Shown here in pieces: positions 585 through 6,034 of a stretch of DNA of 47,147 nt. Within the stretch, counting starts at the first letter, position 1. The number at the start of each line of letters is the position of its first letter. The stretch lies in the sequence record PZ787336.1; one strand, given 5' to 3'. A program made the translations under genes and the position numbers. This DNA comes from a phage. The notes under the pieces were generated by a model that did no database searches, had not been told where the DNA came from, and saw only the letters and a list, made by a program, of their open reading frames with translations.

Positions 585-585
<1 letters not shown>

Positions 586-2960
586 TATTCGGTTGCTCTC
601 CTGTTGGTGTTGTAGTTTCTTGAGATGGCTTGCCCTATTGGGCCATTTTCCGAAATATCACTCACAATCGTCTCAATTGTTACGCTGCCGTCACCATTAT
701 CTCTGGCGCTGCTGCTAACCTGCGCTGAGCTGTTATTGATAATGCTATTATAAACTACAACGCCACTGCTGCCGCCTGTCAGGTCTTTGTTGCTGATAAC
801 TGAGCCATCGTTACCGGGAATCATATACTGGCGACCGTTGGACGCCTGGAATATTTCAGGCAAGCCATTTTCGCCCACTTCGTACATACTTCCGGCACTA
901 ACAGGGCCACCATTTTTACGCTTGCCAGCAATGCCCATCGCCAGAGCTCCGAGAACGGCACCTACCCCAATTGCAGCTGCCCCGCCGAATGAGCCGATTG
1001 ATGCTACGATTGCTGCAGGAGTCCATGCTGCCGTGGTAGTGGCTGCTGCCGCCGTGGATGCTGCTGTTGTGGTTGCCAGCCCTGCTGTTTGCGCCGCCGT
1101 TGTGGTTGCTGTTGCCGCAACCTGCGCAGTCTGTCCCATAACAGCAGATTTAACCCACTGCACACCCATTTCGACGAAACTATTTACCAGAGAGTTCAGC
1201 ACTGTAGATCCTAGACTGCGCATGGCATCCTGAACGCTCATTGTGCCTGTTAGCAATCCGGTGATGCTATTTGATGCCGTGCTCATTGCAGAATCAAGCG
1301 CCGTACCGAACAATTGCGCCCCGAGGCTTTGCTGCTGCCACTCTGCCCACATGGCGTCCATTCGCTGCTGGCGGTATTGTGCTTCAATTGCTGCGCGAGT
1401 CTGCTCAATCTCCTTGATTTTTTGTGGATATGCTGCGGCGTATGCGTCAAGGTCAGCCATACGTTGCTGGTATTCACTGTCAATGCCAGTCGTTGGCGAC
1501 GCAATAGCGCGCAACCCCTGATATGATTTTTCTATGCGCTGCTTTTCCTTCTCCGCTTCTGCCTGCTCCTTCAGTGCATTCTTCTGGTCCCAAATTTTCG
1601 CAGCGTACTCACCAGCCAGTTTTATTTGCTCCTGAGTGGCAGCTTTGCCAAGCGATTGCTGCGCGTTGAGAATAGCTTGTTCGCGGGAGAGTTCGCTGGT
1701 AGATGTGGCATTAAGCATGGTTTGCTGGCGTAATTTCTCCAGCTTTTCAGCAACTGACTCAGCTTGCCGTTCTTCGGCGCTTTTGCCCTTTCCTTTGCCT
1801 TTCTTGTCTTTGGTTGGTGCTTGTGCAATCTTCAGGTGTTTTGTTGCTTCAGCCTGTTTCTTTGTCTGCTCGTAACCTTCTTTTGAAGCCTTAACGAATC
1901 GCTCGACTTGATCGTTATATTGTTTTTGCTTCTCAATATCATCATCACCGAAAAGCGCATCAACCCCCATTTGTGCCCATGCGCCTGGGTTTAGCTTCGA
2001 GATAACCGTGGCGAGAGATAGAATCTTGTCGCTCGTGCTGGTTGATTTGTCGCCGAGGAAATCAATGTATTTTGCCAGCTGGTCGATAATCTCTACTGCT
2101 GTTTTTGATGCACCAGTGGCATCGTTAACGGCAACCACAAGTTTGGAGAATGAAACTTCAAGAGAACCAACAGCCTGATCCATTGTGCGAGGAAGTTTTT
2201 CAAACTCAGCATTAACGATGCTTGTCCTGTCCTGAATAGCGTTCAGTGCATCCTCTGCTGTCAGTTTGCCATCGAGCATTCTTGCGCGAAGTTCACCCAT
2301 TGAAATGCCAAGCCCAGCCGCTATCTGGCGTGCAAGCTCAGGCATCTGCTCAAGGATGGAGTTGAACTCTTCCGCACGTATTGTGCCGGATGCGATTGAC
2401 TGACCGAACTGGCGCAGGGCGTTAGCCATTTCCTCAGTTGATGACCCGCCGATTCGACCTATTTTTTGCAGGGTATCGGTAAGATTAAGAACCTGAGCAT
2501 TTGTTGCACCAGCCTCTTTCAGTGATGACGTCAATGTCTCCCACAACTTCGTAGTATCACTCAGGCTTGCACCAGTGGTTGAGGCGATATTTGCCAGTGT
2601 GCTGAATGTTTCGTTTGCTGTTTTCGCGTCAGTTGACAGGCGAGCAATCCTTGCCTGAAGTTGAGTCATGTTATCGGCAACCTCAAGGAATCGCTTGCCC
2701 CATTCGATAATCAGTGACACGGATATTGCGCCAGCAAGAGCTGTCATCTGAGTTTTTAAACCAGAAACAGAGCCAGACAGTCCGCCAAATGTTTTGCCAG
2801 TTTTTTTTGCTGCGTTATCAACACCATTAAGTGTATCGGTTGCTGACGCTCCTGATTTAACGAATCGTCCAAATTCATCTCTCGCGCGTTGCGTGCCTTT
2901 TTTTAGCCCCTCAACATCCATCCCGACTTCATAGACGATTCCGCCGACTTCTTCAGCCAT
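585..2960 (-). CDS. tail tape measure protein
   Basis: 791 aa, long alpha-helical/coiled-coil-like sequence, Ala/Thr/Gly-rich hydrophobic C-terminal region; sits between chaperone-like gene and minor tail genes. Confidence 0.9.
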
Positions 2961-3676
2961 TATGTATTCCTCGCTTTTTTCGCTTTGCGTTCAGCCAGTG
3001 CTTTCATGCGCTCGCGGTCTGCTTTGGCCTGATCGTACTCTGCCGCGCGCTCTTCTTTCGTTAACCCTTTCGGCTCTGGGTATTTATTCTTAATCATCAT
3101 CTGAAACTCTGTCATAGACAGGTTTTCTGCCTCATCGCGCGTCATGTCGAAATGCGTGCGTGCTGAGATGATATATTGCGACGCATGAAACTCGTTTGTG
3201 GTTTTTTTGCCCCGCTCCTCCAGACGCTCAGGAACTTTGAGTGGAGACTTGCCAATGATGCCGTGCTGCATCAGATTGCGCGCAATAATAATAATGTCGC
3301 TCACTGGCATGATGCCAGGCACGTATCGCACGCCGCGAGGTGTTGGTTTCCATCCACCAATCAGTACGGAAATATCATCTTCACAGCATGACTGCATAAC
3401 GATATAGGCAGCACTCAGTACGTGCCGACCATACACGGGCTTACTGATGGTCTTCATGACCTGCATCTGTGCGCCAAATGGCAGGTATTCGACGTGCTGC
3501 AACGGCGCAACATAATCAATGCCGTTGAGCTTAGCGTATACCTCGACGATTTCTTTTGGTGTGCCGATTTCATTCATGGCACGGAATGATGGCTTGAAGA
3601 AAAAACTCCTGTCAGAAAGCGAGATGCGCATCTCCCCGATTTCTGTTAGTGGCGTGCGATTGCTCATGTTTTGCAT
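2960..3676 (-). CDS. putative tail assembly chaperone
   Basis: 238 aa ORF directly upstream of the tape measure gene, Lys/Glu-rich C-terminus; position-based. Confidence 0.4.
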   Translation of the reverse strand: MQNMSNRTPLTEIGEMRISLSDRSFFFKPSFRAMNEIGTPKEIVEVYAKLNGIDYVAPLQHVEYLPFGAQMQVMKTISKPVYGRHVLSAAYIVMQSCCEDDISVLIGGWKPTPRGVRYVPGIMPVSDIIIIARNLMQHGIIGKSPLKVPERLEERGKKTTNEFHASQYIISARTHFDMTRDEAENLSMTEFQMMIKNKYPEPKGLTKEERAAEYDQAKADRERMKALAERKAKKARNT

Positions 3677-3693
3677 CCTGAATTTGACTGATG

Positions 3694-3707
3694 TTGATTA
3701 TATCATC
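3694..3707 (-). promoter_or_regulatory. extended -10 promoter (TGATATAAT on minus strand) upstream of the chaperone/tape-measure genes
   Basis: plus-strand ttgattatatcatc = minus TGATATAAT, about 20 nt upstream of the ATG at 3676. Confidence 0.45.
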
Positions 3708-3716
3708 TCAGTGGTG

Positions 3717-3745
3717 TTGACACCTGCGAGGTGGTGATGTAGATT
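3717..3745 (+). promoter_or_regulatory. sigma70-like promoter TTGACA-N17-TAGATT driving the plus-strand Imm island
   Basis: TTGACA at 3717-3722, 17-bp spacer, TAGATT at 3740-3745, 35 nt upstream of the ATG at 3781; member of a repeated promoter family. Confidence 0.5.
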
Positions 3746-3780
3746 CAAATCATCGAAACGATATATGAATGAGGTGAGTT

Positions 3781-3975
3781 ATGGACGTTGTTATTTTGTT
3801 ACTTTTCGCTGGATTGGTTATATTTGCTTATCTTCTCCCGTCATTTGTGGCATTGCAAAGAAAGCACACAAATACGACCGCAATCTGTGTATTGAATATT
3901 CTTGTCGGATGGAGCTTTATTGGATGGGTTGCGGCACTTGTTTGGGCGTTGGTTAACAGTGGCGACAAAAAATGA
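3781..3975 (+). CDS. superinfection immunity protein (Imm family), small membrane protein
   Basis: 64 aa, two predicted transmembrane helices, conserved GWSFIGWVAALVWAL motif typical of the Imm_superinfect family. Confidence 0.75.
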   Translation: MDVVILLLFAGLVIFAYLLPSFVALQRKHTNTTAICVLNILVGWSFIGWVAALVWALVNSGDKK

Positions 3976-4115
3976 ACGAACAAACAAAAGCTGACCTGAT
4001 TTTCTATACTGATTTGTATGTCGATGCTGGTTATGACTACGAAGAAGCTGAACGCATGGCGAAAGACTTGCTTCGTGTGATTGGTGTGATTTTTGATGAG
4101 GATAAGGTGATATGA
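3972..4115 (+). CDS. hypothetical small acidic protein (47 aa)
   Basis: ATG overlaps the stop of the Imm gene (ATGA), ends overlapping the next start; below the ORF-track length cutoff. Confidence 0.35.
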   Translation: MNEQTKADLIFYTDLYVDAGYDYEEAERMAKDLLRVIGVIFDEDKVI

Positions 4116-4471
4116 ACAATTATGAAGAGATTAGTGATTTTGAGATTAATAAGGCGGTGGCACTAATTGTTGGTGCGACATTTAATGATGATGGCGAGCC
4201 GGTTAGATTTGTCGAATGTGATACAGGTGCTTACGCCGACTTTAATGAGATTGAATTTGACCCATGCAATAAACCAGAGGATGCGTGGCCAATTATCACT
4301 GAAAACAAAATCAGCATAATGTTTGATAGCACCGATACGAGATATGAAGGTGAATATCACGAATGGTGTGACGCGATTTCACATTGCCAAAAGTTCGGAA
4401 TTCAGCATCAGTCTAACCCACTCCGCGCCGCCATGATCGTCTTCCTGAAAATGAATGAGGATAAGTTATGA
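4112..4471 (+). CDS. hypothetical phage protein
   Basis: 119 aa ORF translationally coupled to neighbours in the plus-strand island. Confidence 0.55.
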   Translation: MNNYEEISDFEINKAVALIVGATFNDDGEPVRFVECDTGAYADFNEIEFDPCNKPEDAWPIITENKISIMFDSTDTRYEGEYHEWCDAISHCQKFGIQHQSNPLRAAMIVFLKMNEDKL

Positions 4472-4662
4472 GCAAGTGGATTAAGTGTAGTGAGCGAATG
4501 CCAAACGAAGAAGATGTTTTGGTTTATTGCTCAGACACAAAAGAGCAGATGGTTGGATTCCATAAGGGGAAAGGACTATTTCAATTTTTCTATATGAATG
4601 GAGTTGAGGGAGTCTGTGAGCCAACACACTGGATGCCACTACCAGAGCCACCACAAGAATAA
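4468..4662 (+). CDS. DUF551-like phage protein
   Basis: 64 aa with C-terminal HWMPLPEPP motif characteristic of DUF551. Confidence 0.55.
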   Translation: MSKWIKCSERMPNEEDVLVYCSDTKEQMVGFHKGKGLFQFFYMNGVEGVCEPTHWMPLPEPPQE

Positions 4663-4665
4663 AAC

Positions 4666-4689
4666 AAAGCCCCTTTCGGGGCTTTTTCT
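4666..4689. terminator. bidirectional rho-independent terminator
   Basis: aaaGCCCCtttcGGGGCttttt hairpin with A-run before and T-run after, between convergent genes. Confidence 0.7.
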
Positions 4690-5409
4690 TTATCCGGTTA
4701 CAGTGCAAGCTGTACTGATGATGATTTCAGGGTCGGTAGACGAATCCGTGACAGTAACGGTGTACACACCAGCTGTAGGGCTTGCCAGTGATGCGCCTGA
4801 TTCGCCACCAACAACTACGCCATCTTTTCGCCACACATAGGTGTATGGTGATACGCCGCCTTCAACAGCAACAGTTAACGGGCTTCCAGTGCTGCCAGTT
4901 GGCGATAAGTCGGTAGTGAACGCCAGAGGTTCAAGGCTTTCGACGGTAACGCTGTCAGAATCGTAAACCTTAAACTCAAGGCTGCCAGTAACAATGTCGT
5001 TCGTGCCACCTTCGTAGCTGATGCTGGTGATGTTGCAGTACGCGGTAACGATAGTTGCACCAGTTACCTGACGCACCCACAAGGAAGGCTGGCGACGCGC
5101 TTTCAGTTCAGTGGCGTAAATCTCAACCAGACGATGGAAGCCAAATTCATCGCTCGGGTCATTCTTGCGGATTTCAACCTCTGCACTGATGGTCATGTCA
5201 GAGCTGGTAACGAGAGTGGAAACAAAGCCGCCAGCGGTATCCGCTTCCGACGTAGTGGTCTGTGGCGAGTAGTCAACGCCTTTACTGGTGGTTGAGCCTA
5301 AATACTTCCAGTCGCCTGCATCCGGAACTGCGTCGCCGCACCCTTCAGCAAGGAACAGTCGGGTCATGCGACCGACCAGAACGCCTTTATCATTTGCACA
5401 AATAGCCAT
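4690..5409 (-). CDS. major tail protein with C-terminal Ig-like domain
   Basis: 239 aa; Thr/Ser/Gly/Val-rich C-terminal region typical of Ig-like (Big_2) domains on siphovirus tail tube proteins; position in tail module. Confidence 0.8.
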   Translation of the reverse strand: MAICANDKGVLVGRMTRLFLAEGCGDAVPDAGDWKYLGSTTSKGVDYSPQTTTSEADTAGGFVSTLVTSSDMTISAEVEIRKNDPSDEFGFHRLVEIYATELKARRQPSLWVRQVTGATIVTAYCNITSISYEGGTNDIVTGSLEFKVYDSDSVTVESLEPLAFTTDLSPTGSTGSPLTVAVEGGVSPYTYVWRKDGVVVGGESGASLASPTAGVYTVTVTDSSTDPEIIISTACTVTG

Positions 5410-5442
5410 TTCGATCTCCGAATTGTGTTAGCTGCTAACGTG

Positions 5443-5457
5443 GTGATTATATCACAG
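5443..5457 (-). promoter_or_regulatory. extended -10 promoter (TGTGATATAAT on minus strand) for the major tail protein gene
   Basis: plus gtgattatatcac; same 13-mer recurs at 23028-23040. Confidence 0.5.
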
Positions 5458-5460
5458 GTG

Positions 5461-5489
5461 TTGACAGTGATTATTTTGTGGTGTAGATT
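5461..5489 (+). promoter_or_regulatory. sigma70-like promoter TTGACA-N17-TAGATT, divergent from the major tail protein promoter
   Basis: TTGACA 5461-5466, TAGATT 5484-5489; no ORF downstream before the terminator at 6009-6034. Confidence 0.5.
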
Positions 5490-6034
5490 GTATTTCAGAT
5501 AGTTTTCGTGAGCGACTTTGCGGACTTTTTAGAAACTGACCACAAAGATAAATGCAAACGATGATGTTGTTCTGATGGCGGCGTAATAGCCTGTAAGTCA
5601 GCAAGGTCTTCCGATTCCTTGTAAACAAATTCGGCGCACTGGCCCGGTGTGATTAATAATGGGCACGCAACAGGTAAGAGCATTGAGAGGTTCGATTCCT
5701 CTTGGTTATTGAGGCCGCGAGGCGCGCTGGAATTGATCAACCAGTGTGAAATCCAATAGGCATAGGTTCAGTGCTCTTTCCGTTGTGGTGAATGCGCAGG
5801 TCGATGCGCAAGTAAGCAACCGATGGCGAGGTAGTGTATAAGGCGGTCGCTGCAAGCCTTGAACTGAAAATCCCGTCACGCCGGAGTTCGACACCGGCCA
5901 CCATAACACTTAACATTCAGCGTTATCGCAATCATATGTAGGGGTATGTATGGGTTACGGGGCTGGATGTTAAGAAAGCATGCTGGCAATGCTTAAACCA
6001 GCAATAAGGCCGCTTCGTGCGGCTTTATTTATTT
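5490..6034 (+). other. promoter-to-terminator plus-strand locus without ORF; candidate non-coding RNA
   Basis: no plus-strand ORF longer than 17 codons; bounded by promoter and hairpin terminator; contains a tRNA-like T-arm GAGAGGTTCGATTCCTCT. Confidence 0.25.
6009..6034. terminator. rho-independent terminator
   Basis: GCCGCttcgtGCGGC followed by tttatttattt. Confidence 0.6.

What the first reader, a model, noticed from the sequence alone, without database searches (positions are those of the whole stretch)
3717..4689. Superinfection-immunity island inserted between major tail protein and tail chaperone genes
A plus-strand cassette with its own promoter and a bidirectional terminator encodes an Imm-family membrane protein (GWSFIGWVAALVWAL motif), a 47-aa acidic ORF, a 119-aa protein and a DUF551 protein, all transcribed against the tail operon. 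Such islands often carry exclusion or defence functions.
Basis: partly seen in the sequence, partly recalled or inferred. Interest (0 to 1): 0.45.

Follow-up and report, generated by a model that had tools for sequence, protein, structure and literature searches.

The report
Imm-led accessory operon inside tail genes
A four-gene accessory operon that begins with a homologue of the phage T4 superinfection-immunity protein sits backwards inside the tail genes of this Skatevirus-like phage; it is real, but the same cassette is already annotated in over a hundred related phage genomes, so it is ordinary.

Summary
Window 3717-4689 holds a plus-strand operon: promoter TTGACA-17-TAGATT, four ATGA-coupled genes, and a bidirectional terminator.

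The genes are:
- Imm, 64 aa (PF14373, 66 bits)
- p47, an acidic 47-aa protein
- DUF551, 64 aa (PF04448)

The operon lies between the major tail protein gene and a DUF6246 gene followed by the tape measure gene.

The window is a virulent Skatevirus-like siphophage. All 37 related loci compared carry the cassette, and GenBank already annotates it. It is a fixed, modular slot, not a recent insertion:
- promoter, terminator and p47 are constant
- Imm (30/38), a secreted 97-aa protein (22/38) and NinX (16/38) are optional
- DUF551 is hypervariable

Here NinX and the DUF551 allele were swapped in; the closest copies are in E. coli prophage genes.

Imm aligns with T-even Imm and keeps both residues (R27, W44) that a 2026 preprint reports as needed for T4 exclusion. 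The likely function is a block of DNA entry by secondary phages. This is untested.

Separately, 0.8 kb away (5496-6023) lies an unannotated, covariation-supported tmRNA-like RNA. It is far more interesting than the island.

The parts
3697..3705 (-). Extended -10 promoter-like element TGATATAAT, facing the DUF6246/tape-measure genes. It sits back-to-back with the island promoter.
   Evidence: Own motif scan. The surrounding TTGATTATATCA block is invariant in 38 genomes. Annotated as a promoter in phage ASO78B. Prediction only.
3717..3745 (+). Island promoter, TTGACA-17 nt-TAGATT (sigma-70 type).
   Evidence: 10 of 12 matches. Hexamers conserved in 36 of 38 genomes; the other two have TTGACA-18-TAGATT. 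An identical core occurs at 5461-5489. Not verified experimentally.
3771..3777 (+). Shine-Dalgarno sequence GAGGTGA for the first gene.
   Evidence: Read from the sequence. Conserved upstream of whichever gene occupies the first slot in relatives.
3781..3975 (+). Imm: 64-aa basic (pI 9.1) membrane protein with two hydrophobic helices; homologue of T4 Imm.
   Evidence: PF14373 at 66 bits and phrog_1039. BLASTP against RB3 Imm: 34% identity, E 3e-12. RB3 R33 and W50 align with R27 and W44. Hydropathy profile. dN/dS 0.06. 100% identical to the ZCEC08 protein.
3972..4115 (+). p47: 47-aa acidic protein (pI 4.1). It is the invariant core gene of the slot and is specific to this phage lineage.
   Evidence: phrog_17424 only. 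Present in all 38 genomes at 91-100% aa identity. dN/dS 0.05. Only 10 clusters, all at least 78% identical, in 5.8 billion proteins.
4096..4106 (+). Junction repeat ATGAGGATAAG, copy 1, at the 3' end of p47. It contains the ribosome-binding site for the next gene.
   Evidence: Read from the sequence. The same junction is conserved in relatives.
4112..4471 (+). NinX/DUF2591 family protein: 119 aa, acidic. An optional module.
4455..4465 (+). Junction repeat ATGAGGATAAG, copy 2, at the 3' end of NinX. Recombination between the two copies would excise NinX precisely.
   Evidence: Read from the sequence. Spacing to copy 1 is 359 nt. ZCEC08 goes straight from p47 to DUF551 at this junction. All NinX-bearing relatives carry the same 3' junction.
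4468..4662 (+). DUF551 protein: 64 aa, a small five-stranded beta-barrel with conserved termini and a hypervariable centre.
4666..4685 (.). Bidirectional intrinsic terminator shared by the island and the convergent major tail protein gene.
   Evidence: 8-bp stem with 5 G-C pairs and T-runs on both strands. The stem is conserved in all 38 genomes, with variation in the loop.
4690..5409 (-). Major tail protein with a C-terminal Ig-like domain (right flank, convergent with the island).
   Evidence: phrog_853, E 9e-87. 91-97% identical in relatives.
2960..3676 (-). DUF6246 protein, 238 aa (left flank, divergent from the island). It occupies the tail-assembly-chaperone position, but that function is unverified.
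   Evidence: PF19759, E 1.5e-73. No similarity to the SETP7 chaperones. The only PDB sequence match is weak, E 0.012.
585..2960 (-). Tape measure protein, 791 aa, with a hydrophobic segment near residues 648-680. It is the candidate target class for Imm, by analogy with T4.
   Evidence: PF20155 and phrog_1538. Hydropathy profile. The T4 analogy comes from bioRxiv 10.64898/2026.03.06.709160.

Best explanation
**What it is.** This is an accessory operon read by the host RNA polymerase. It is embedded backwards in the tail-gene block of a virulent Skatevirus-like siphophage, at a slot that the whole lineage keeps.

**Shown here:**
- One promoter-like site, four translationally coupled genes and a shared bidirectional terminator form the unit.
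- The first gene encodes a small two-helix inner-membrane protein homologous to T4 Imm.
- The slot is modular. Promoter, p47 and terminator are fixed. Imm, a secreted 97-aa protein and NinX are optional. DUF551 is swapped among very divergent alleles, and conserved ribosome-binding-site junction sequences mark the module boundaries.

**Inferred:**
- The infected cell makes Imm in the inner membrane.
- As reported for T4, where Imm binds the incoming phage's tape measure protein, it stops the channel that carries DNA across the membrane from forming. A second phage of the same or a related kind then adsorbs but cannot deliver its genome.
- This protects the ongoing infection from competitors.

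**Not explained:**
- The three downstream acidic cytoplasmic proteins (p47, NinX, DUF551) have no assignable function.
- The most that can be said is that p47 is under core-gene-like constraint and that DUF551 is a Tudor/SH3-like binding-type barrel shared with prophage Ead/Ea22 proteins.

**Confidence.** The figure of 0.6 applies to the exclusion function. The anatomy and the family assignments are near certain.
For: **Operon anatomy**
- ORFs, ATGA overlaps, promoter and terminator.
- These signals are conserved in 38 genomes.

**Imm homology**
- PF14373 at 66 bits against a cut-off of 27.9, and phrog_1039 'immunity to superinfection'.
- tblastn reaches T-even imm genes directly.
- Pairwise alignment with RB3 Imm: 34% identity over 62 aa, E 3e-12.
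- The motif YxxPxxxALxR...W....W.....W is conserved.
- RB3 R33 and W50 align with window R27 and W44. The preprint 10.64898/2026.03.06.709160 reports that R33A and W50A weaken T4 exclusion and that Imm co-purifies with the tape measure protein.

**Membrane character and selection**
- Two hydrophobic segments with a basic loop QRKH between them.
- Purifying selection on Imm and p47.

**Accessory character**
- GC 41.4% against 49-52% in the flanking tail genes.
- Optional modules.
- An analogous Imm-first counter-oriented cassette occupies the same position in the unrelated Jerseyvirus SETP7.

**Target and lifestyle**
- The phage's own tape measure protein has a hydrophobic segment of the kind proposed to form the channel.
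- No integrase or repressor is annotated in the 95.6%-identical genome ZCEC08. Skatevirus isolates are described as lytic.
Against: - No exclusion phenotype, expression timing or transcript end has been measured for any phage of this group. Promoter and terminator are sequence predictions.
- Eight of 38 related genomes lack Imm and are viable phages.
- The Imm core is nearly invariant whether the tape measure C-terminal hydrophobic region is of type A or type B. There is therefore no sign of Imm/TMP co-adaptation.
- The T4 mechanism comes from a single preprint on a myovirus. Its TMP domain has not been shown to exist in this siphovirus TMP.
- PF14373 proteins are widespread (1,789 phage records), and only T4 Imm has been tested.
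- Three of the four genes remain functionally unexplained.
Confidence: 0.6

Rival explanations
1. The operon is mainly a host-takeover or anti-defence unit. The constant p47, together with the exchangeable NinX and DUF551 proteins, binds host or prophage factors. Imm is just one optional passenger in the first slot.
For: - p47 is the only coding element present in all 38 genomes, at 91-100% identity and dN/dS 0.05.
- Imm is missing in 8 genomes.
- DUF551 has conserved ends and a hypervariable centre on a Tudor/SH3-like barrel. That pattern fits a binding surface that is diversified or repeatedly replaced.
- Its closest alleles are C-terminal domains of prophage Ead/Ea22-like early proteins, described as portable domains in PMC10834534.
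- The cassette was kept in nearly all genome-reduced seszw mutants, down to 36.6 kb.
Against: - No match to any defence or anti-defence model.
- No solved homologue of known function.
- DUF551 is dispensable in the laboratory.
- Retention in the reduced genomes may only mean that the genes were not targeted; the supplementary tables were not available.
- This reading is not exclusive of Imm-mediated exclusion.
Confidence: 0.2
2. The Imm-like protein does not exclude phages. As a small two-helix membrane protein it instead modulates the membrane, for example lysis timing (holin or antiholin-like) or membrane potential.
For: - It is small and has two hydrophobic helices and a charged C-terminus, features shared with class II holins.
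- There is a weak sub-threshold match to DUF3302 and to a 2TM-TIR membrane anchor.
Against: - Homology to T4 Imm is specific, including both residues reported as functionally required.
- The lysis cassette (holin, lysin) is annotated elsewhere in the closest genome.
- The gene is optional in the lineage, whereas lysis genes are not.
Confidence: 0.08
3. The cassette is selectively neutral cargo picked up by recombination with prophages and has no current function.
For: - Low GC.
- Mosaic joints and high nucleotide identity to prophage genes.
- Optional modules.
- The DUF551 gene can be deleted.
Against: - dN/dS is about 0.05-0.06 for Imm and p47.
- Promoter, ribosome-binding sites, ATGA coupling and terminator are conserved across 38 genomes.
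- The slot is never empty.
Confidence: 0.04

Closest known systems
Bacteriophage T4 Imm (immunity to superinfection; Pfam PF14373 Imm_superinfect)
   Same: - Small inner-membrane protein made by a virulent phage.
- Sequence homologue: 34% identity to the T-even (RB3) protein.
- Conserved Y-P-AL-R and W-W-W motif.
- Both residues whose mutation weakens T4 exclusion are kept.
   Different: - 64 aa against 83 aa: it lacks the N-terminal extension and the C-terminal tail.
- Encoded by a siphovirus that uses O-antigen as receptor.
- Located inside the tail genes, next to the tape measure operon.
- No Spackle homologue.
- Function untested.
Imm-first counter-oriented cassette of Jerseyvirus (e.g. 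Salmonella phage SETP7 gp23-gp21)
   Same: - Same position, between the tail tube gene and the chaperone/tape-measure genes.
- Same opposite orientation.
- An Imm homologue is the first gene (41% identity).
   Different: - The downstream genes differ: a DNA repair exonuclease and a hypothetical protein, instead of p47, NinX and DUF551.
- The flanking chaperones are two annotated genes rather than a single DUF6246 gene.
Morons of lambdoid phages (Hendrix-type: an extra gene with its own promoter and terminator inside the late operon)
   Same: - Own promoter-like site and terminator.
- Lower GC than its neighbours.
- Lies between structural genes.
- The content is accessory.
   Different: - The host is a virulent phage, so there is no expression from a prophage.
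- The slot as a whole is fixed in the lineage, and only its sub-modules come and go.
- It is transcribed against the flanking genes and splits the tail genes into separately promoted units.
HK97 gp15-type superinfection exclusion. Cited from the preprint read as acting on the tape measure protein.
   Same: A small inner-membrane protein proposed to stop genome entry by acting on the incoming tape measure protein.
   Different: - No sequence comparison was done here.
- HK97 gp15 is expressed from a prophage.
nin-region NinX and ea-region Ead/Ea22 C-terminal DUF551 domains of P22-like and lambda-like prophages
   Same: - Same Pfam families.
- The DUF551 gene is 86-87% nt and 92-97% aa identical to prophage copies.
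- The NinX core is about 90% nt identical to prophage copies.
   Different: - Here they are free-standing small genes in a virulent siphophage tail region.
- In prophages DUF551 is often the C-terminal domain of a larger early protein.

Membership tests
Imm_superinfect (PF14373; T4 Imm) | Profile match above the curated cut-off | tested here: met
   66 bits against 27.9, covering profile positions 2-42 of 42. phrog_1039 E 5.5e-24.
Imm_superinfect (PF14373; T4 Imm) | Direct similarity to an experimentally studied T-even Imm | tested here: met
   RB3 imm (83 aa): 34% identity over 62 aa, E 3e-12 pairwise. tblastn E 2e-4 against the whole phage collection.
Imm_superinfect (PF14373; T4 Imm) | Small membrane protein with hydrophobic helices | tested here: met
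   64 aa, GRAVY 1.22. Two hydrophobic stretches, roughly residues 3-25 and 33-58, separated by QRKHTNTT. Hydropathy only; no topology predictor was run.
Imm_superinfect (PF14373; T4 Imm) | Residues reported as needed for T4 exclusion (R33, W50) are conserved | tested here: met
   They align with R27 and W44, which are invariant in the 5-sequence alignment. The mutational data come from the preprint read.
Imm_superinfect (PF14373; T4 Imm) | Blocks genome entry of superinfecting phage / binds the tape measure protein | not testable with these tools
   Needs plating, DNA-entry and co-purification experiments. A covariation test of Imm against TMP alleles gave no signal.
Phage_P22_NinX (PF10765, formerly DUF2591) | Profile match above the cut-off over the full length | tested here: met
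   56.7 bits against 22.6, profile positions 1-113 of 114. All 120 listed homologues carry PF10765. The family's function is unknown.
DUF551 (PF04448) | Profile match above the cut-off, with the conserved N-terminal W-I-x-x-x-x-x-x-P and C-terminal HWMPLPEPP motifs | tested here: met
   74.3 bits against 22. Motifs seen in the 38-sequence alignment. The family's function is unknown.
Moron (autonomous extra transcription unit in a late operon) | Own promoter and terminator | tested here: inconclusive
   Consensus matches that are conserved in 38 genomes. No transcript data.
Moron (autonomous extra transcription unit in a late operon) | Present in some but absent from otherwise similar genomes | tested here: not met
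   The cassette as a whole is present in all 37 related loci. Only Imm (30/38), the 97-aa secreted protein (22/38) and NinX (16/38) are polymorphic.
Moron (autonomous extra transcription unit in a late operon) | Base composition different from the neighbours | tested here: met
   GC 41.4% against 52.5% (tail tube), 49.2% (DUF6246) and 50.0% (TMP). It is, however, within the range of 1-kb windows of this genome, 39-52%.
Tail assembly chaperone (label given to the left neighbour 2960-3676) | Gene immediately upstream of the tape measure gene | tested here: met
   The stop codon overlaps the TMP start at 2960.
Tail assembly chaperone (label given to the left neighbour 2960-3676) | Sequence or profile similarity to known chaperones, or a G/GT-type frameshift partner ORF | tested here: not met
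   The only significant Pfam/PHROG matches are DUF6246 and phrog_791 (unknown function), plus the likewise uncharacterised phrog_29657 and a sub-threshold VIT hit. No BLASTP similarity to SETP7 gp24 or gp25. No overlapping alternative-frame ORF longer than 41 aa. No structure was predicted for this protein.
Known anti-phage defence systems (PADLOC) | Match of any cassette protein to a defence model | tested here: not met
   The only hit is a 15.7-bit match of Imm to the membrane anchor of 2TM-TIR. Nothing for the other three proteins.

The most novel reading that the evidence does not exclude
The slot is a lineage-wide, promoter-to-terminator 'plug-in' operon with three functional layers:
- An envelope layer in the first positions (Imm and/or a secreted 97-aa protein) that blocks entry of competitors at the tape-measure step.
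- An invariant small acidic protein (p47) with an essential-like role.
- A terminal DUF551 beta-barrel whose hypervariable face is repeatedly replaced from the prophage Ead/Ea22 pool, to match factors of the resident prophages or host.

On this reading, conserved ribosome-binding-site junctions such as ATGAGGATAAG are the recombination joints that let virulent phages and prophages trade these modules.
Probability: 0.15. Interest if true: 0.5.

Novelty: new member of a known kind. Interest (0 to 1): 0.2.

Why it matters
As it stands the finding matters little. It is a correct reading of a cassette that public annotations already label 'superinfection immunity protein / DUF2591 / DUF551' in Skate-like phages.

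Two modest points are useful:
1. Skate-like and Jersey-like phages are being developed for Salmonella and E. coli biocontrol. An Imm-type exclusion gene that is present in some isolates and absent from others could affect how phages behave together in cocktails.
2. If Imm proteins act on tape measure proteins, as now proposed for T4, this small siphovirus gives a simple system to test how general that mechanism is. Natural Imm-plus and Imm-minus relatives and two tape-measure C-terminal types are available.

Tried and rejected
1. **Defence and naming libraries.** PADLOC and NCBIfam gave nothing useful for any cassette protein.
2. **PDB sequence searches.** NinX, DUF551, DUF6246 and the relatives' 97-aa secreted protein gave nothing significant.
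3. **Structure route.**
   - The NinX model matches only two uncharacterised structural-genomics proteins.
   - Neither gives a function.
4. **Is the 97-aa secreted protein of relatives a Spackle analogue (which would make a T4-like Sp+Imm pair)?** There is no sequence or profile similarity. It is not encoded in this window and could not be submitted for structure prediction.
5. **Imm/tape-measure co-variation.**
   - Imm-less phages mostly have long (877 aa or more) tape measures: 7 of 8.
   - The length difference lies in the mosaic N-terminal half, 1-3 kb from Imm, so physical linkage explains it.
   - The C-terminal hydrophobic region (types A and B) does not track Imm presence or Imm sequence.
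   - I rejected this as evidence.
6. **Distant homologues of p47.** None were found. The search tool is word-limited.
7. **DUF6246 against the Jerseyvirus chaperones.** No similarity.
8. **Essentiality data from the seszw genome-reduction paper.** The supplementary tables are not held. I used the deposited mutant genomes instead.
9. **A tRNA-like domain for the neighbouring tmRNA-like RNA.**
   - ARAGORN calls a 'permuted tmRNA' only at a lowered threshold, and it places its 5' tRNA part upstream of the promoter.
   - A candidate acceptor helix with a G-U pair at position 3 is not conserved as G-U in other copies.
   - The question is left unresolved.
Full report
**What is there.** ORF listing and direct reading of window 3300-5200 show four plus-strand ORFs:
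- 3781-3975 (64 aa)
- 3972-4115 (47 aa)
- 4112-4471 (119 aa)
- 4468-4662 (64 aa)

Each junction is an ATGA overlap. The first three downstream-gene starts are preceded by ribosome-binding sites: GAGGTGA for the first gene, AAGGTGA for the third and GAGGA for the fourth.

The consensus scan finds TTGACA-17-TAGATT at 3717-3745. It also finds one hairpin, AAAGCCCC-TTTC-GGGGCTTT at 4666-4685, that scores as a terminator on both strands.

The flanking genes are all on the minus strand:
- the major tail protein (4690-5409, phrog_853, E 9e-87)
- a DUF6246 protein (2960-3676)
- the tape measure protein (585-2960)

**Family assignments.**

| Gene | Match | Score / cut-off |
|---|---|---|
| 1 | Imm_superinfect PF14373; phrog_1039 'immunity to superinfection' | 66 bits / 27.9 |
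| 2 | phrog_17424 only (47-aa family, unknown function) | — |
| 3 | Phage_P22_NinX PF10765 (formerly DUF2591) | 56.7 bits / 22.6 |
| 4 | DUF551 PF04448 | 74.3 bits / 22 |

Defence-system models and NCBIfam add nothing.

**Which phage, and is this known?**
- The window is about 92-96% identical to Skate-like siphophages of Salmonella, E. coli and Shigella. The closest is Escherichia phage vB_Eco_ZCEC08 (95.6% over 85% of the first 25 kb).
- The ICTV genus is Skatevirus.
- The BASEL-collection paper describes these as small O-antigen-dependent siphoviruses. Several isolate papers call them lytic.
- GenBank records of relatives already annotate the same cassette as 'superinfection immunity protein', 'DUF2591 domain-containing protein' and 'DUF551 domain-containing protein'. 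One record (ASO78B) even annotates the two divergent promoters and the terminator.
- The kind of feature is therefore already on record. No paper in the searchable library analyses it.

**Architecture across relatives.** I compared 37 related loci: 3 GenBank and 34 IMG/VR, with one phage present twice. Every genome has the counter-oriented slot between the tail tube gene and the DUF6246 gene. Counts below are out of 38, including the window.

| Element | Occurrence |
|---|---|
| 93-aa C-terminally anchored protein | optional, 2 of 38 |
| 97-aa protein with a signal peptide | optional, 22 of 38 |
| Imm | optional, 30 of 38 |
| p47 | always present, 91-100% aa identity |
| NinX | optional, 16 of 38, only 35-70% identical to the window's |
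| DUF551 | 37 of 38, only 31-49% identical to the window's |

The elements appear in this order along the slot.
- Every genome has at least one envelope-directed protein (Imm or the secreted protein) in the promoter-proximal position.
- The promoter hexamers, the leader with its ribosome-binding site, and the terminator stem are conserved throughout.
- Imm and p47 evolve under strong purifying selection: dN/dS 0.06 and 0.05, with dS 0.62 and 0.37.
- The slot is thus a fixed lineage feature with exchangeable modules, not an island inserted into this genome.

**What is particular to this window.**
- Against ZCEC08 the sequence is collinear (93%) from 2901 to 4115, the last base of p47. It is then unrelated until 4642, about 20 nt before the DUF551 stop.
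- ZCEC08 has Imm (100% identical protein), p47 and a different DUF551 allele, and no NinX.
- The NinX module is bounded by an 11-nt direct repeat, ATGAGGATAAG (4096-4106 and 4455-4465). The repeat doubles as the ribosome-binding region of the following gene. All NinX-bearing relatives carry the same 3' junction.
- The window's DUF551 gene is 86-87% nt identical to the 3' end of P22-like ST104 orf8 and of E. coli prophage 'DUF551' and 'ead/Ea22-like' genes. At the protein level it is 92-97% identical to them.
- The central part of NinX is about 90-91% nt identical to E. coli prophage NinX genes.
- The right half of the cassette has therefore been exchanged recently with the lambdoid prophage gene pool.

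**Imm.**
- The protein aligns with T-even Imm (RB3, 83 aa) at 34% identity over 62 residues (E 3e-12 pairwise). It aligns with Jerseyvirus Imm at 41%.
- It has two hydrophobic stretches separated by the basic loop QRKHTNTT.
- A 2026 preprint (10.64898/2026.03.06.709160, read) reports three things. T4 Imm co-purifies with a fragment of the T4 tape measure protein. Cryo-EM places an Imm loop against the TMP helical bundle. R33A and W50A reduce exclusion.
- In my alignment these residues correspond to R27 and W44 of the window protein. Both columns are invariant.
- The window's tape measure protein has a strongly hydrophobic segment near residues 648-680.
- From this I infer, but cannot show, that the window's Imm blocks genome entry of secondary phages at the tape-measure/inner-membrane step.
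- A test for co-variation between Imm and tape-measure alleles was negative. The Imm core is almost invariant with both C-terminal TMP types. The association of Imm-less genomes with long TMPs is explained by linkage to the mosaic N-terminal half.

**The other three genes.**
- p47 is restricted to this phage group: 10 clusters, all at least 78% identical, among 5.8 billion proteins.
- The DUF551 family alignment shows conserved termini (MSKWIKCSERMP......THWMPLPEPP) around a hypervariable centre.
- The literature treats DUF551 as a portable domain of unknown function, found in Stx-phage Ea22 variants and in YfdS.
- Experimental hint: among the genome-reduced mutants of Skatevirus seszw deposited with PMC9825161, clone 160L (37.7 kb) has the DUF551 gene precisely deleted. 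The secreted-protein gene and p47 are intact in essentially all mutants, down to 36.6 kb.
- seszw carries no Imm, so these data say nothing about Imm.

**The neighbours.**
- The 'tail chaperone' label is not verified. The 238-aa protein is DUF6246, has no similarity to annotated chaperones and has no frameshift partner ORF.
- On the minus strand, 12 nt from the island's -35 element, lies a perfect extended -10 (TGATATAAT, 3705-3697). It faces the DUF6246/tape-measure genes and is invariant in all genomes.
- The cassette and its terminator therefore appear to split the tail genes into separately promoted units. This is a prediction only.
- Jerseyvirus SETP7, a different subfamily, has an analogous counter-oriented cassette at the same position, and it too begins with an Imm homologue.

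**Verdict on the finding.**
- The Imm call and the operon anatomy are right.
- 'Inserted island', 'tail chaperone' and the extension of an immunity role to all four genes are not supported.
- It is a new allele combination of a known, already annotated kind of cassette.
- Interest is low (0.2).

**Noticed outside the finding.**
- The same divergent promoter module is duplicated upstream of the tail tube gene: 5441-5489 against 3692-3745.
- The plus-strand copy there drives a roughly 530-nt non-coding stretch, about 5496 to the terminator at 6009-6023. In relatives this stretch ends with tRNA genes; this window has none.
- The stretch carries a tmRNA-like tag frame with no start codon: AUAAAU-GCA AAC GAU GAU GUU GUU CUG AUG GCG GCG UAA, which reads ANDDVVLMAA-stop. 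The frame starts at 5554.
- Rfam scores it below threshold: tmRNA_permuted 27.3 bits, E 0.0013; beta_tmRNA E 0.0016.
- ARAGORN reports it only at a lowered threshold.
- An exact 18-mer from it occurs in at least 120 IMG/VR contigs.
- The 167-nt core matches 515 GenBank phage records. These include Skate-like siphoviruses, N4-like podoviruses, Felix-O1-like and Vi1-like myoviruses, and part of the phage P1 ban leader. It is almost never annotated.
- Across 93 distinct copies the peptide stays tag-like while the nucleotides change: ANDDVVLMAA, ANEEMYLAVA, ANDDLMLMAA, ANDEQFLAVA and others.
- A stop-codon hairpin, a following hairpin and a loop-to-downstream pseudoknot are 97.6% paired. Nine of 15 pairs show compensatory double changes, and no shuffle of 500 reaches this.
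- I found no convincing tRNA-like domain.
- The phage tmRNAs I found listed in the literature are those of mycobacteriophages and Bacillus phage G, in the 2014 tmRNA-database paper. The 2025 update counts 79 bacteriophage sequences but does not name them in the passages read.
- This element deserves its own evaluation.

Noticed in passing
window 5496-6023 (+); tag frame 5554-5586; hairpins 5572-5575/5598-5601 and 5602-5606/5617-5621; pseudoknot 5611-5614/5631-5634: An unannotated structured RNA with a tmRNA-like proteolysis-tag frame.
- The frame reads ANDDVVLMAA-stop. It has no start codon and is preceded by AUAAAU.
- It is followed by a stop-codon hairpin and an H-type pseudoknot.
- Rfam tmRNA models hit it only below threshold (E about 0.001). 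ARAGORN calls a 'permuted tmRNA' only at -ps80.
- The core occurs in 515 GenBank phage records from unrelated groups (Skate-like, N4-like, Felix-O1-like, Vi1-like, part of the P1 ban leader) and in at least 120 IMG/VR contigs.
- The tag peptide is conserved across different nucleotide versions.
- In 93 distinct copies, 97.6% of tested base-pair cells are paired and 9 of 15 pairs show compensatory changes.
- No tRNA-like domain was identified.

   Followed up: partly
window 5441-5489 compared with 3692-3745: The back-to-back promoter module is duplicated. It consists of a minus-strand extended -10 (TG.TGATTATATCA) and a plus-strand TTGACA-17-TAGATT. One copy sits between the DUF6246 gene and the Imm cassette. 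The other sits between the tail tube gene and the tmRNA-like RNA. The tail tube gene would then be a single-gene unit bounded by its own promoter and the shared terminator.
   Followed up: partly
window 5662-5790, 5880-5898, 5909-5974; L003 4730-5050: Downstream of the tag module are long-stem units with hypervariable loops.
- The stem is CAACAGGTAAGAGCATTG ... CAGTGCTCTTTCCGTTGTGG.
- The loops often contain tRNA T-arm-like GGTTCGAWTCC (window 5686-5702).
- The units are repeated 2-3 times in Bas81 and carry compensatory changes.
- In many non-Skate phages CAGTGCTCTTTCC lies directly 5' of the tag module, which suggests a circularly permuted order.
- The 3' arm is also complementary to the 5' half of the relatives' tRNA-Arg.
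- The meaning is unresolved.

   Followed up: partly
window 5410-6030 versus L001 4565-4734, L003 5251-5417, L040 22621-22694: The window has no tRNA gene at all (ARAGORN, and Rfam at gathering threshold). Close relatives carry tRNA-Ser plus tRNA-Arg, or tRNA-Ile, just before the same terminator. VSt472 has a homing endonuclease in this region.
   Followed up: partly
window 585-2960 (-) and the homologous genes in L004-L037: The tape measure proteins of the group are mosaics.
- The N-terminal half comes in at least four unrelated types, with total lengths of 778 to 1003 aa or more.
- The C-terminal 380 aa are shared, but the hydrophobic segment has two alleles.
- Seven of 8 Imm-less genomes have long tape measures. 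The hydrophobic allele does not track Imm.

   Followed up: yes
L003 2368-2661 (Bas81), L038 1296-1589 (seszw); also L016 and L025: In 22 of 38 genomes the first slot of the cassette holds a 97-aa protein with a signal peptide and two cysteines (phrog_2315, unknown function), with or without Imm. Two genomes add a 93-aa C-terminally anchored protein with a weak tail-spike N-terminal domain match. These may be further envelope-acting exclusion factors. There is no similarity to T4 Spackle.
   Followed up: partly
L039 (MZ375325, seszw_160L) versus L038 (MZ375295): In the CRISPR-reduced genomes of Skatevirus seszw, the DUF551 gene of the cassette is precisely deleted in one viable 37.7-kb mutant. 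The secreted-protein gene and p47 remain 100% intact in about 70 deposited records, down to 36.6 kb.
   Followed up: partly
L044 2486-4085 (Salmonella phage SETP7, Jerseyvirus): A different siphovirus subfamily has an analogous counter-oriented cassette at the same place in the tail module. It starts with an Imm homologue, followed by a DNA repair exonuclease gene and a hypothetical gene.
   Followed up: no
window 2960-3676 (-): The gene in the tail-assembly-chaperone position is a single 238-aa DUF6246 protein with a highly charged C-terminus. There is no frameshift partner ORF and no similarity to known chaperones. The only PDB sequence hit is a weak one (E 0.012) to a virion protein of jumbo phage phiKp24 (8bfk).
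   Followed up: partly
L165 992-1177 (phage P1, record 68791-68976): In phage P1 the partial match to the tmRNA-like core lies in the C1-controlled ban operon leader. It comes immediately after the annotated 'dicF-like region' and upstream of tRNA-Asn and tRNA-Thr.
   Followed up: no
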